From NCBI GenBank assembly GCA_051313645.2, contig JBNRSN020000014.1:63798001-63862000 (forward strand): a stretch of 64,000 nt of DNA. The letters run 5' to 3'. Source of the DNA: Centroscyllium fabricii. Taxonomy: Eukaryota. The translations under genes and the position numbers were made by a program. Each line of letters starts with the position of its first letter. Position 1 is the stretch's first letter. Positions 27,722-31,372 of the stretch are shown piece by piece. The notes under the pieces were generated by a model. The model was given only the letters and a program-made list of their open reading frames with translations, was not told the origin of the DNA and made no database searches.

Positions 27722-27920
27722 ACAATAGCAAAATACTGCAGATGCTGGCAATCTGAAATAACAAAACTTGGGGCAAACTCAGCAGGCCAGGCACCATCCG
27801 TGGAGAGAGAAACTATTAACGTTTCAGGTCAAAGACCTTTCGTCAGAACTGGAAACGAGCAGGAAAAGGAACAGATTTTTTAAGCAAGTTTAGGGGCTGG
27901 CAAATGGGGGAGGGGATAAA
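27722..27920 (-). mobile_element. Penelope pLTR (family A) fragment; continues at about 30625-30788 beyond the Rex1 insertion
   Basis: Both parts match, in reverse, the 3' region of the Penelope element at 38130-38380. Confidence 0.7.
27813..27852 (-). ncRNA. Minimal type I hammerhead ribozyme motif (intact core)
   Basis: CAGTT-CTGACGA-A-AGGTC TTT GACCT-GAAA-CG-TT-AAT; palindromic AACGTT in the helix III position. Confidence 0.65.
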
Positions 27921-27924
27921 ATGC

Positions 27925-30622
27925 AATTCAAGTTTTATTGTCATTGCAGAGTACTAGTACAATGCAACGAGACGAAGACTCGCCGCTCCCGAGAGTAGTG
28001 CAAATAATTAACACACAATTGCATACAGTAAGGTACATTTCAGGTGTGCAGATACTGGAGTTTATTTTTAGAGTTCAGGAGGCTGACAGCCCTGGGGAAG
28101 AAGCTGTTCTTAAATCTAGTCGTGCGGGTGCAAATTGATCTGTAGCGGCTCCCGGAGGGCAGAGGGGCGAACAGACTGTGGCTGGGGTCTGTGGGGTCTT
28201 TAATAATGTTCAGAGACCTCCGTAGGCAGCGTTTGAGGTAGATACATTCAATTGATGGTAGCTGGGTGCCGGTAATTCGTTGGGTAGTTTTGACTACCCG
28301 CTGCAGGGCCTTCCGGTCTGAGATGGTGCAGTTTCCATACCAGACTGATGCAGCTTGTCAGTATGCTTTCGATTGTGCAGCGGTAGAAGTTGGCGAGGAT
28401 GCCGGATGACAGCTTGGCTTTTTTCAGCTTCCTTAGGAAGTACAGGCGCTGTTGGGCCACCTTAATCAGGGAGGATGTGTTTAGTGACCAGGAGAGGTCT
28501 TCCGAGATGTGGACCCCGAGGAACTTGAAGCTGGACACCCTTTCCACCTCAGCCCCTTGGATGAAGATGGGGGTGTGTCTTCTGCTTTCAGTACTCCGGA
28601 AGTCCACTATGATCGCCTTAGCTTTCTTGGTGTTCAGTGCCAGGTTGTTGTCGGCACATCATCCCACAAGGCGCTGGATCTCATCCCTGTTGGCTGACTC
28701 ATCGTTGTTGGTGATCTGACCAACCACCGTGGTGTCACCCGCAAACTTGATCGTGTTGGAGCCATGGACAGCCGCACCGTCGTGGGTGAAGAGGGAGTAG
28801 AGGAGGGGGCTCAGCACACAGCCTTGTGGGCCCCCCGTGTTCAGGGTAAGCGGGGGGGAGGTGAGGTTGCCTAACTTCACAGACTGTGGTCTGTTGGTTA
28901 GGAAGTCCAGGGTCCAGTTGCAGAGGGAGGTGTTCAGGCCAAGGGTGAGGAGTTTGGTAGACAACTTGCTGGGGACGATGGTGTTGAATGCTGAGCTGCA
29001 GTTAATAAACAGCATTCTGATATATGTATCTTTTCTATCCAGGTGGTTTAGTGCAGAGGGAAGAGCTGTAGTGATAGCATCTTCCGTTGATCTGTTTCCT
29101 CGATAGGCAAACTGGTATTGGTCCAGGGCGGCGGGGACCAGCCGCTCGAAACACTTCATGATTATGGGTGTGAGTGCGACAGGGCGGTAGTCGCTCAGGC
29201 AAGTCACGGCCGTTTTCTTGGGCACAGGGATGATGGTGGCGGTCTTGAAGCAGGTAGGAACAGCTGCCTTCGCCAGTGACAGGTTGAAGATGTCGGTGAA
29301 GACCTCAGCCAGTTGGTCAGCACAGTCTTTGAGTGCCCGGCCGGGGATGCCGTTGGGACCCGCAGCCTTCCGTGCGTTCACTCCACGTAGAGCACCTCTT
29401 ACGTCGGAGGAGGACAGTATTAGTGGCTGATCTTCCGGAGATTGCAAGACTTTGGTGGCTGGCCCCCTGTTGTCCCTGTCGAAGCGAGCATAGAAGTTGT
29501 TGAGCTCCTCCGGTAGGGACGCATCGCTGGTCGGGGGGCTGGTGTTTTTGCACTTGTAGTCCGTGATGGACGTATGCCTTGCCACATACGCCGAGGGTCC
29601 GAGTTGTTGTGGAAGTGTTCCTCTATCTTCAGTGTCTGGTTTCGTTTGGCAGACCTGATACCCCTCTTTAAGTTTGCCCTGGCTGTGCTGTAAGCTGCCA
29701 CCTCCCAGATTTGAAAGCTACGTCACGTGCCTTCAGCAGCGAGCGGACCTCCCCCGTTCATCCAGGGTTTCTGGTTGGGGAATGTCTTGATGGTTTTTTG
29801 GGTAGTGGCCACCTCGACACAGCTGTTGATGTAAAATAGCACTGTGGATGCGTATTCCTCGATGTCCGTGTGAGCGAACATGCTCCATTCAGTGCGTTCG
29901 AAGCAGTCTTGTAGCTCTGAGACTGCCCCTTCTGGCCATACCCTGACTCTTTTGGCTGGAGCTTTCACCCTTTTGATGAGTGGTTTGTATGCTGGGGTAA
30001 GGAACAGTGAAAGGTGGTCGGACTTCCCGAGGTGGGGGCACGGGATGGCTTTGTAAGCCTCTGCGATGTTGGTGTAGACCTGGTCCAGCGTGTTCTCACC
30101 CCTCGTGGGGCAGGAGACATTCTGGTGAAATTTCGGTAGTACGGATTTGAGGTTAGCGTGGTTGAAGACCCCCGCCACGATAAAGGCTCCCTCCGGATGC
30201 GCGGTCTGCTGCTCGCTGATGGCCCTGTGGAGATCCTTTAGTGCCAGTTTGGCATTGGCATGTGGAGGGATGTAGACCACAGTGAAGATGACTGCCATGA
30301 ATTCCCGAGGCAGGTAAAAGGGTCTGCACTTTACAGTGAGGAATTCCAGATCGGCGGAGCAGGAACGTTCGATCAGTTCCGCGTTTGTGCCCCAGGCGTT
30401 GTTCGTGTAGATGCACAGGCCGCCTCCCTTGCTCTTACCGGAGTCGGCTGTTCTGTCGCGCGGAAGACAGTGTGACCCGCTAGCTGGATGGCGGAGTCAA
30501 GAATGCCGTCGTTCAGCCAGGTCTCCGTGAAGATCATGGCGCAGCATTCCTTGATCCTGGTCTGTGGAGAGGCCAAGCTTGATTTAATCAATTTTACTCC
30601 CTAGGGACCTGACGTTGGCCAG
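27925..30622 (-). mobile_element. Rex1/Babar-clade LINE, near-complete EN+RT, frameshifted
   Basis: [82 protein letters not shown] (catalytic FADD mutated); tail AATGACAATAAAACTTGAATTG. Confidence 0.92.
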
Positions 30623-30788
30623 AGAGGCAAGAACAAAAGGCAAGGTCTGTGACTGGATGGAAGGCAGGAGAAGAAAGGGGGCATTAAGAGATAGTCAAGG
30701 CAAGAGGAGATGGTAATGGACAGGTTAAGGAATAAAGGATGGCTCTAGATGGAGTGTGAATTGCGCTGGCAGAATGGAAGACAAATGC

Positions 30789-31372
30789 AAGAAGTCACAC
30801 AACACCAGATTATAGTCCAACAGTTTTATTTTAAATCACAAGCTTTCGGAGCGCTGCTCCTTCGTCAAGGTGAAAAAGAGAGACTGACTTAAAGAATGCA
30901 CATATGTGATAAAGGAAGAAATCCGATATCTCCCACATCTCACCTCAGTAGAGATAGACACACAAAGGCTTATTCACATATTTTAAGTGTTTCATTTAAA
31001 CATAGCATATATAGAGAGAGATAACAATGTGGTCTGTCCAGTTGTTTCACATCACACCTCAGCTGAGGGACATCAAAGCAATCAAAGGTGTTCCAACATA
31101 TCAGCTAGCCTGAGATCAAAGGGTGCAGTCACAAAGGGTCAAGCGCTACAGTCTGCTTTAAATCCCACATAATGATTTTTTTTAAACAAGGATTTTTCTT
31201 ACTTAAAATCGCAGAACAAGCCAAAGATGGTTCGAGTGTGGATGACTACGTCAGGCGATTTCACATGTAGCGCGACATAAACCCAATATCACGGTTGAGG
31301 CCATGCTCATGGGTGCGGAACTTGGCTATCAGCCTCTGCTCGACGATTTTGCGTTGTGGGTCTGGAAGGCCA
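30789..31372 (-). mobile_element. Penelope-like 3' fragment (family B): ORF C-terminus plus pLTR with hammerhead-like core
   Basis: QRKIVEQRLIAKFRTHEHGLNRDIGFMSRYM* followed by TTGACGA-AGGAGCAGCGCTCC-GAAA-GCTT-GTGA. Confidence 0.75.

What the first reader, a model, noticed from the sequence alone, without database searches (positions are those of the whole stretch)
27722..31372. Both hammerhead families can be tied to Penelope coding sequence within this window
Seen: family A (CTGA[C/T]GA-AGGTC..GACCT-GAAA-CGTT) follows the RT/GIY-YIG element at 36215-38380 and recurs at 5284 and 27813-27852. Family B (CTGANGA-GGAGC..GCTCC-GAAA-GCTT) follows a PLE-type C-terminus (...HGLNRDIGFMSRY*) at 31261 and recurs at 16826 and 35363. 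Each has a self-complementary hexamer (AACGTT or AAGCTT) in place of helix III. Known: such minimal hammerheads cleave as dimers. Inference: at least six cores in 64 kb suggest a large genomic pool of ribozyme-bearing PLE derivatives, possibly retrozyme-like.
Basis: partly seen in the sequence, partly recalled or inferred. Interest (0 to 1): 0.7.

Follow-up and report, generated by a model that had tools for sequence, protein, structure and literature searches.

The report
Shark Penelope ends with minimal hammerheads
The motifs are real copies of the small, likely self-cutting "hammerhead" RNA already known from Penelope-like jumping genes, and here they sit in broken ends of two very abundant elements rather than in a separate circular-RNA family; the one fresh point is that the copy flagged belongs to a branch that spread about 3,000 times with an extra letter in the catalytic core, predicted to impair cutting.

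Summary
Observation largely confirmed: seven hammerhead cores lie in the window, but only 4 of the 6 listed keep the palindrome and most are damaged. Both families are pLTR hammerheads of Neptune-type Penelope-like elements (PLEs). Family B follows the PLE ORF in 29 of 30 loci, and one locus is an intact HHR–890 aa ORF–HHR unit. The genome holds 215,463 descriptor matches (control 3,033), and the window's surroundings are at the genome average. Most of the flagged span is an unrelated LINE inserted into a family A 3' UTR.

The retrozyme reading is not supported. Copies are 5'-truncated, solo or back-to-back, and I found no tandem array. No copy ends at the predicted cut (0 of 91). Compensatory changes exist: U3–A8 appears on two separate branches of family A, with U–A to C–G in helix I and A–U to G–C in helix II. 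Two uncompensated variants are passengers in TA-flanked DNA transposons. The flagged B copy belongs to a 3,054-copy branch with a one-base core insertion.

This is a known class (Cervera 2014), and the scan has reported it many times on other DNA, including this genome. Cleavage was not tested.

The parts
30780..31374 (-). 5'-truncated family B Penelope-like element: last 38 codons of the ORF (stop 31261-31263), 3' UTR and pLTR, without the tail
30836..30873 (-). Family B minimal hammerhead with a one-base insertion beside C3 (CUUGACGA); helix I UCAC/GUGA, helix II GGAGC/GCUCC, palindrome AAGCUU, predicted cut after CUU at 30840
   Evidence: 3,054 exact genomic copies of this variant
30629..30788 (-). 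Upstream half of a family A 3' UTR; the B element ends at its 5' edge
   Evidence: 87% over 161 nt to another copy's UTR, colinear with 27921-27777
27922..30628 (-). Unrelated 5'-truncated LINE (APE-type endonuclease motifs, RT, ALKBH8_N-like C-terminus; the name Rex1/Babar-like is recalled) inserted into the family A UTR
27721..27921 (-). Downstream half of the family A UTR and its pLTR with tail
27814..27850 (-). Family A minimal hammerhead with canonical core; helix II AGGUC/GACCU, palindrome AACGUU, helix I 3 bp, predicted cut after GUU at 27818
36247..38380 (+). Broken, 5'-truncated family A element (RT, CxxxxCxxC linker, GIY-YIG-type endonuclease, UTR) ending in a damaged hammerhead at 38352-38380
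38381..39442 (.). Inverted-repeat DNA element inserted at the TA of the family A cut site; it separates the core from the 3' strand of helix I
39443..39520 (+). Remainder of the family A pLTR
35146..35460 (.). Family B fold-back insertion: truncated arm with tail (35157-35276, -), full core (35363-35391, +), 14-bp target duplication at 35146 and 35447
   Evidence: folds as one hairpin of -189 kcal/mol
16806..16916 (+). Solo family B stub of about 85 nt (core 16826-16854, first helix I pair broken) with a 14-bp target duplication
5207..5385 (+). Family A stub with an inverted arm; core 5284-5312, palindrome and helix I lost

Best explanation
The motifs are minimal type I hammerheads in the end repeat (pLTR) of two Penelope-like retrotransposon families, and the copies in this window are truncated or fold-back insertions that are likely catalytically dead. 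Shown: the autonomous unit is hammerhead-ORF-hammerhead, about 3.2 kb, with the predicted cut 91 nt before the start codon. Inferred: in transcripts of such tandem units two hammerheads pair through a 4-bp intermolecular helix III (ACGU or AGCU) and swapped helices I, probably helped by the element's own protein, and cut after GUU, GUC or CUU. Inferred: reverse transcription starts at two sites beyond the cut (about +55 and +92 in B, +70 and +100 in A) on uncut or circular RNA, so every insertion carries the hammerhead region, and early 5' truncation and inversion left more than 200,000 stubs. Selection on the fold likely acts on the few source elements rather than on the stubs, and is likely loose enough for a branch with a core insertion to spread.
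For: ORF link: B 29 of 30 and A 15 of 30 ORF-selected loci have their own family's core downstream within the 1.5 kb held; the other family's core appears in 1 of 30 each. Intact unit L329: cores 3,224 nt apart around an 890-aa ORF; L326 similar with a broken ORF. The ORFs carry RVT_1 (7e-10 for B), DKGG, YIDD, a CxxxxCxxC linker and the GIY-YIG-type motifs VVYLIRC/YIGET; A and B proteins are 32% identical over 582 aa. 3' ends: 0 of 72 B and 0 of 19 A copies end within 30 nt of the cut, with two peaks each; this matches the two internal start sites around the tail in Anolis PAc (PMC11167929, main text). Layout: back-to-back in 25 of 34 close pairs, 14-bp target duplications, as described for PLEs (PMC3846280, PMC8557442, passages). 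Covariation in family A: pairs 3-8 CG/UA, 2.1-1.1 UA/CG, 10.1-11.1 AU/GC. U3 copies fall on two branches, and one clade is rejected (AU p=3e-54). Family B's common changes are mostly to G.U wobbles. Two uncompensated variants lie inside TA-flanked inverted-repeat elements.
Against: No cleavage or transcript data exist for this genome. In family A half of the ORF-selected loci showed no core within 1.5 kb. Number of pairs with a double change is not above shuffle (4 vs 3.4, 201/500); the significant measures count related sequences many times, and many rows were picked by patterns that fix part of the helices. Pairs 2.4-1.4 in B (31 of 111 unpaired) and 10.5-11.5 in A (18 of 82 unpaired) are often broken. 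The modelled active dimer is less stable than the monomers or the minimum-energy dimer (-5.9 vs -24.1 kcal/mol for 27846; -17.5 vs -25.9 for 35363), so activity would need help; the energy model ignores tertiary contacts. A B branch with a core insertion spread 3,054 times, which argues against a strict need for cutting. The two U3-A8 branches could reflect transfer between subfamilies instead of two origins.
Confidence: 0.88

Rival explanations
1. A substantial part of the pool is a non-autonomous, retrozyme-like family: short tandem units cut by the hammerheads into circular RNAs and mobilised by the PLE protein.
For: Five direct pairs 116-1330 nt apart. Internally deleted copies that join the ORF start to the 3' UTR (L266, L284, L287, L290). 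Retrozymes are reported in one chondrichthyan and derive from pLTRs in Xenopus (10.64898/2026.07.22.740005, parts 1-3 of 5).
Against: No array of three cores, and each deletion or spacing differs except one pair of near-identical loci 12 kb apart. No core lies in a tandem repeat in the window. Back-to-back pairs dominate and would fold the ribozyme shut. The cores are of the minimal PLE type. My sample is 196 cores, drawn largely from one chromosome, so telomeric or centromeric arrays could be missed.
Confidence: 0.08
2. The hammerhead fold is kept for a non-catalytic role (protein binding, promoter or RNA handling) or is a tolerated passenger; cutting is not needed for retrotransposition.
For: 3,054 exact copies of the core-insertion variant, on at least three UTR types and at both ends of one tandem unit. 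A two-base insertion near C3 impaired cleavage in a natural hammerhead (PMC3088659, passages). Hammerhead mutants did not change PAc insertion in vitro, and no RNA-seq ends were found at the cut (PMC11167929). Naiads lack canonical hammerheads (PMC8557442, passages). No copy ends at the cut, and there is no sharp 5' pile-up at the cut.
Against: The 3-8 pair is a catalytic-core tertiary pair and was restored as U3-A8 on two branches. The core letters are shared between families whose proteins are only 32% identical. A one-base insertion may be bulged out and tolerated.
Confidence: 0.3
3. The cores are chance matches in repeat-rich DNA.
For: The motif is short, Rfam hammerhead models do not hit, and several window copies are imperfect.
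Against: 4 observed against 0.025 expected; 215,463 hits against 3,033 for the reversed control; fixed position downstream of the ORF; compensatory changes.
Confidence: 0.01

Closest known systems
Minimal hammerheads (min-HHR) in pLTRs of metazoan Penelope-like elements (Cervera and De la Pena 2014, PMC4209133; parts 1-2 of 4 read: results, discussion, start of methods)
   Same: Type I topology, no helix III loop, palindromic 15.2-16.2, an extra base between 9 and 10.1, 4-bp helix I, position in the pLTR, mostly single truncated copies and opposite-strand pairs, and the U3-A8 core variant (about 1,300 hits in Schistosoma).
   Different: Scale (over 200,000 against 2,000-9,000 reported there); helix II of 4-5 bp; A10.1-U11.1 in the main A form; U17 in most copies; sharks are not mentioned in the text read (supplements not seen).
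Neptune clade of EN+ PLEs (Craig et al. 2021, PMC8557442, passages; insertion layout in PMC3846280, passages)
   Same: [quoted passage not shown]
   Different: Clade assigned here from the linker motif only (Nematis shares it); no tree against reference PLEs was built.
PAc Poseidon element of Anolis (Frangieh et al. 2024, PMC11167929, main text read)
   Same: Two reverse-transcription start sites bracketing the tail, beyond the hammerhead cut; AT-rich targets.
   Different: In PAc the ORF starts inside the hammerhead and the cut is 26 nt after the ATG; in family B the cut is 91 nt before the ATG. Different clade.
Non-LTR retrozymes (Cervera and De la Pena 2020, PMC7229834, passages; 10.64898/2026.07.22.740005, parts 1-3 of 5)
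   Same: Type I hammerheads, very high copy number (axolotl up to 120,000), related to PLE pLTRs.
   Different: Retrozymes are 150-450 nt tandem arrays expressed as circles, mostly with canonical hammerheads; these are dispersed truncated or inverted PLE ends with minimal cores.

Membership tests
PLE minimal hammerhead (min-HHR) | Core CUGANGA...GAAA...UH, or the U3-A8 covariant | tested here: met
   the copy at 30869 carries a one-base insertion
PLE minimal hammerhead (min-HHR) | Helices I and II with compensatory or compatible changes | tested here: met
   met for family lineages, while most window copies are damaged
PLE minimal hammerhead (min-HHR) | Palindromic minimal helix III and an extra base between 9 and 10.1 | tested here: met
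   ACGU / AGCU; extra A in 82 of 82 A and 109 of 111 B copies; palindrome lost in 2 of the 6 listed window copies
PLE minimal hammerhead (min-HHR) | Located in the pLTRs flanking a PLE ORF | tested here: met
PLE minimal hammerhead (min-HHR) | Self-cleavage as a dimer | not testable with these tools
   Needs an in vitro assay; energy model only
EN+ Penelope-like element | Single ORF with RT and C-terminal GIY-YIG endonuclease | tested here: met
   890- and 907-aa B ORFs, RVT_1 7e-10, GIY-YIG-type motifs read directly; Pfam GIY-YIG only E=0.21 on an A copy
EN+ Penelope-like element | Partial tandems, inverted 5'-truncated copy, one-sided tail, target duplication | tested here: met
Neptune clade | Zinc-finger-like linker between RT and endonuclease | tested here: met
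   CHSNLCKTC (B) and CKRRRCNTC (A)
Neptune clade | RT phylogeny groups with Neptune references | not tested
   No reference set was on hand
Non-LTR retrozyme | Short tandem arrays with a hammerhead in each unit | tested here: not met
   no arrays among 196 cores; the sample is limited
Non-LTR retrozyme | Canonical type I hammerhead with 6-bp helix I and loop 1-loop 2 contacts | tested here: not met
   Helix I is 4 bp, position 2.5-1.5 is mostly unpaired; no Rfam hammerhead hit
Non-LTR retrozyme | Expressed as circular RNA | not testable with these tools
   No run on record as RNA was listed

The most novel reading that the evidence does not exclude
Family B contains a natural experiment on the open question of what PLE hammerheads do. 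A young branch with a one-base insertion in the catalytic core, which includes the flagged copy, retrotransposed over 3,000 times across several UTR types. If that variant cannot cut, the genome records that cleavage is dispensable for a round of retrotransposition in vivo, even though family A restored the 3-8 core pair on two branches. An intact 890-aa element and thousands of natural variants make this directly testable.
Probability: 0.35. Interest if true: 0.55.

Novelty: new member of a known kind. Interest (0 to 1): 0.28.

Why it matters
The class is published, so the catch itself is ordinary. Its value is as material. The role of hammerheads in Penelope-like elements is unresolved (processing, circularisation, or parasitism). 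This genome offers over 200,000 copies, an intact element, U3-A8 cores on two branches, passenger copies in DNA transposons where compensation is absent, and a successful branch with a likely impaired core. Comparing these variants in vitro would show whether selection tracks cleavage. It also warns that raw hammerhead counts in such genomes mostly reflect dead stubs.

Tried and rejected
Rfam scan of the window at E<=1: no hammerhead family, only hairpin-type miRNA matches below gathering score. PDB search with the 907-aa ORF: no real hit. Pfam did not recognise the 39-aa B C-terminus; the tie came from genome search. Sequencing runs: no RNA holder listed; four contig-only runs were laid and cannot show ends or strand, so they are not used as evidence. 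A first estimate of 3' ends required downstream sequence and was redone without that bias. A tree on 94 columns was unresolved and was replaced by 441 columns; four long-branch rows, including the window's, were left out of the AU test. A cleavage footprint at 5' ends (lead from e1-9162017, e1-9207248) was tested in one young B subfamily. Of 857 hits, my hand tally of the first 100 rows (6 indel rows dropped) gave 31 of 94 starts at -2..+2, 11 at -6 and 10 at +5. The script on the first 30 rows gave 7 at -2..+2. This is at most a mild excess, not a spike. In family A the cut site is a TA target for DNA transposons (window 38381, probably also L203), which mimics a footprint. The apparent pile-up of A starts just before the core is largely two DNA-transposon passengers. 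Lunse et al. 2017 is not held; I saw only its title in reference lists. Searches for a paper on shark PLE hammerheads found none; supplements of PMC4209133 and of the 2026 preprint were not seen and may list shark families.

Full report
Setting. The window lies at G000:C446:63798001-63862000 in a 7.2-Gb assembly. It is probably a cartilaginous fish; this rests on earlier scan notes and my recall of the repeats and was not tested.

1. Observation. A strict descriptor finds four cores, against a mean of 0.025 in 200 shuffles. Similarity search adds the damaged ones, seven in all: family A at 5284, 27846 and 38352, family B at 16826, 30869, 35363 and a truncated arm ending at 35276. The palindrome is intact in 4 of the 6 listed. 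Only 27846 and 35363 have a canonical core, the palindrome and at least 3 bp of helix I. The 35363 copy lies in a fold-back of -189 kcal/mol that would sequester it. The flagged span is a nest on the minus strand: a 5'-truncated B element (31374-30780) sits at the edge of a family A 3' UTR (30788-30629), which a LINE interrupts (30628-27922) before it resumes and ends in the A hammerhead.

2. Link to Penelope coding sequence. Searching the genome with the 39-aa B C-terminus gave 49,689 first-look candidates, of which 150 were scored. In the 30 loci returned, 29 have a B core downstream, 28 of them at 287-445 nt (one locus is the window itself). The A RT fragment gave 31,249 candidates, 150 scored. 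Of 30 loci, 15 show an A core within the 1.5 kb held (three are near-identical copies, one is the window). L121 holds a 907-aa open frame, and L329 is a complete hammerhead-890 aa ORF-hammerhead unit of 3.2 kb. Of 716 tail-ATG junctions, 30 were examined: 7 have a core 91 nt before the ATG, 13 continue into the ORF for over 1.4 kb, and 4 do both. Both proteins have RT motifs, a CxxxxCxxC linker and GIY-YIG-type motifs, and are 32% identical. The linker points to the Neptune clade (PMC8557442, passages).

3. Size and layout of the pool. Exact patterns give 58,267 B and 12,729 A matches with controls of 0. A general descriptor gives 215,463 against 3,033 for the reversed control; by eye all of its first 100 rows are A or B. 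The window's surroundings are average. In loci chosen by the core, the ORF end lies upstream on the same strand in 8 of 30 B and 7 of 30 A loci; the rest are shorter stubs. Among 196 distinct cores, 34 pairs lie within 1.5 kb (deduplicated by family and distance): 25 back-to-back, 4 face-to-face, 5 direct, with no triple. Two window insertions have 14-bp target duplications. This is the published PLE insertion layout (PMC3846280, PMC8557442, passages), not a retrozyme array.

4. Where copies end. In loci not selected on anything beyond position 17, 0 of 72 B and 0 of 19 A copies end within 30 nt of the predicted cut. B ends peak at +50-64 and +85-100, and A ends at +65-74 and +95-105. The template therefore extends past the cut: uncut or circular RNA (inference). 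This agrees with internal initiation at two sites around the tail in Anolis PAc, where hammerhead mutants did not alter insertion and cleavage needed the protein (PMC11167929). A 5' footprint at the cut was not clearly seen.

5. Covariation. A pattern open at positions 3, 8, 2.1, 17 and 1.1 found 8,193 matches. By hand tally its first 100 rows are 84 U3-A8, 9 U3.G8, 6 C3-G8 and 1 C3.A8. This subfamily has G10.1-C11.1 (fixed by the pattern) and mostly C2.1, G1.1 and GUC. In the main A form (28,456 matches) the first 100 rows are 78 C3-G8, 11 U3-A8, 9 C3.A8 (6 fit CpG decay) and 2 U3.G8. A tree built from flanks without the ribozyme (37 copies, 441 columns) puts U3 copies on two supported branches. 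One clade is rejected after dropping four long branches (p-AU 3e-54, two changes); the test was run after I saw the tree, and transfer between subfamilies is not excluded. On 53 A haplotypes, taken from 82 copies after removing the helix-I-less and U10.1 rows, 92.8% of cells pair and 40 cells show a double change against 17.6 shuffled, but the number of covarying pairs is not above shuffle. In 111 B copies the common changes at 2.2-1.2, 2.3-1.3 and 10.3-11.3 are to G.U wobbles, while 2.4-1.4 is unpaired in 31. U3-A8 is a known natural variant (PMC3088659 passages; PMC4209133).

6. Uncompensated variants. Eight of 30 exact A loci are one stub inside a 700-bp, TA-flanked inverted-repeat element, 97-98% identical between copies, with helix I lost (883 exact junctions). 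The U10.1.U11.1 mismatch form (25 of the first 100 rows) lies inside a second TA-flanked element of about 1 kb in 7 of 8 loci inspected. These spread as DNA passengers (inference), which would explain the lack of compensation. The exception is the flagged B copy. Its CUUGACGA core has 3,054 exact copies, and a wider pattern that also admits simple C3U changes gives 7,271. It appears in PLE-type inverted pairs, on at least three UTR types, and in two same-strand copies 5.2 kb apart, the first directly before an ORF start. It therefore spread by retrotransposition (inference). A two-base insertion at this place impaired a natural hammerhead (PMC3088659); a one-base insertion is untested.

7. Mechanism. 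Shown: position, unit structure, end pattern, covariation. Inferred: dimeric, probably protein-assisted cleavage in transcripts of tandem source elements; reverse transcription from beyond the cut; truncation and inversion producing inert stubs. The modelled active dimer is not the lowest-energy state, in line with the low in vitro activity reported for the class (PMC4209133).

8. Novelty and verdict. The class is known since 2014, and the scan holds 446 notes matching these words in at least 28 genomes and 15 in this genome. I found no paper on shark PLE hammerheads (supplements not seen). New member of a known kind; interest 0.28. The core-insertion branch is the only part that could rise higher, if shown to be inactive.

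Noticed in passing
L033, L036, L037, L039, L042, L044, L053, L054 (e.g. L129:4584-5289): Young 700-bp TA-flanked inverted-repeat element (Tc1/mariner-type MITE by recall) carrying a family A hammerhead stub with helix I lost; 883 exact junction matches.
   Followed up: yes
L239, L242, L243, L254, L255, L262, L263: Second TA-flanked inverted-repeat element of about 1 kb carrying a family A stub with its own 13-bp target duplication and a U.U mismatch at the base of helix II; L041 and L264 hold the paired form in the same downstream host sequence.
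   Followed up: partly
window 38381-39442; L203:5957-6898: An inverted-repeat element has inserted at the TA of the family A cut site and split the ribozyme there; L203 is split at the same place. This can mimic a cleavage footprint.
   Followed up: partly
L300/L301, L318/L319 and other rows: Spacerless fold-backs centred on the AAGCTT palindrome recur (5 loci in the first 100 rows), as do fold-backs centred on TTTTAAAA; palindromes may seed the inversion.
   Followed up: partly
L187:864-1030, L191:8820-8999: Family B fold-backs whose arms start at +1 to +3 of the predicted cut.
   Followed up: partly
L266, L284, L287, L290, L291: Internally deleted family B copies that join the first 100-300 nt of the ORF to the 3' UTR or late ORF; each deletion differs except L290/L291.
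   Followed up: partly
L198:921-1131 and L205:2739-2949: Nearly identical, heavily A-to-G / T-to-C altered family B fold-back on two different contigs; it may be an edited hairpin copied inside another element.
   Followed up: no
window 30629-30788 and L025/L026: Family B elements inserted in or at the edge of a family A 3' UTR in two independent places.
   Followed up: no
window 55560-55638: Small fragment of a family A ORF end on the minus strand, without a hammerhead.
   Followed up: no
window 4841-4958: Weak 5S rRNA-like match (25.6 bits, below the gathering score), possibly a 5S-derived SINE head.
   Followed up: no
window 62180-62552, 21559-21787, 43515-43889: GC-rich minisatellites (32-, 38- and about 120-nt units) without hammerheads.
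   Followed up: no
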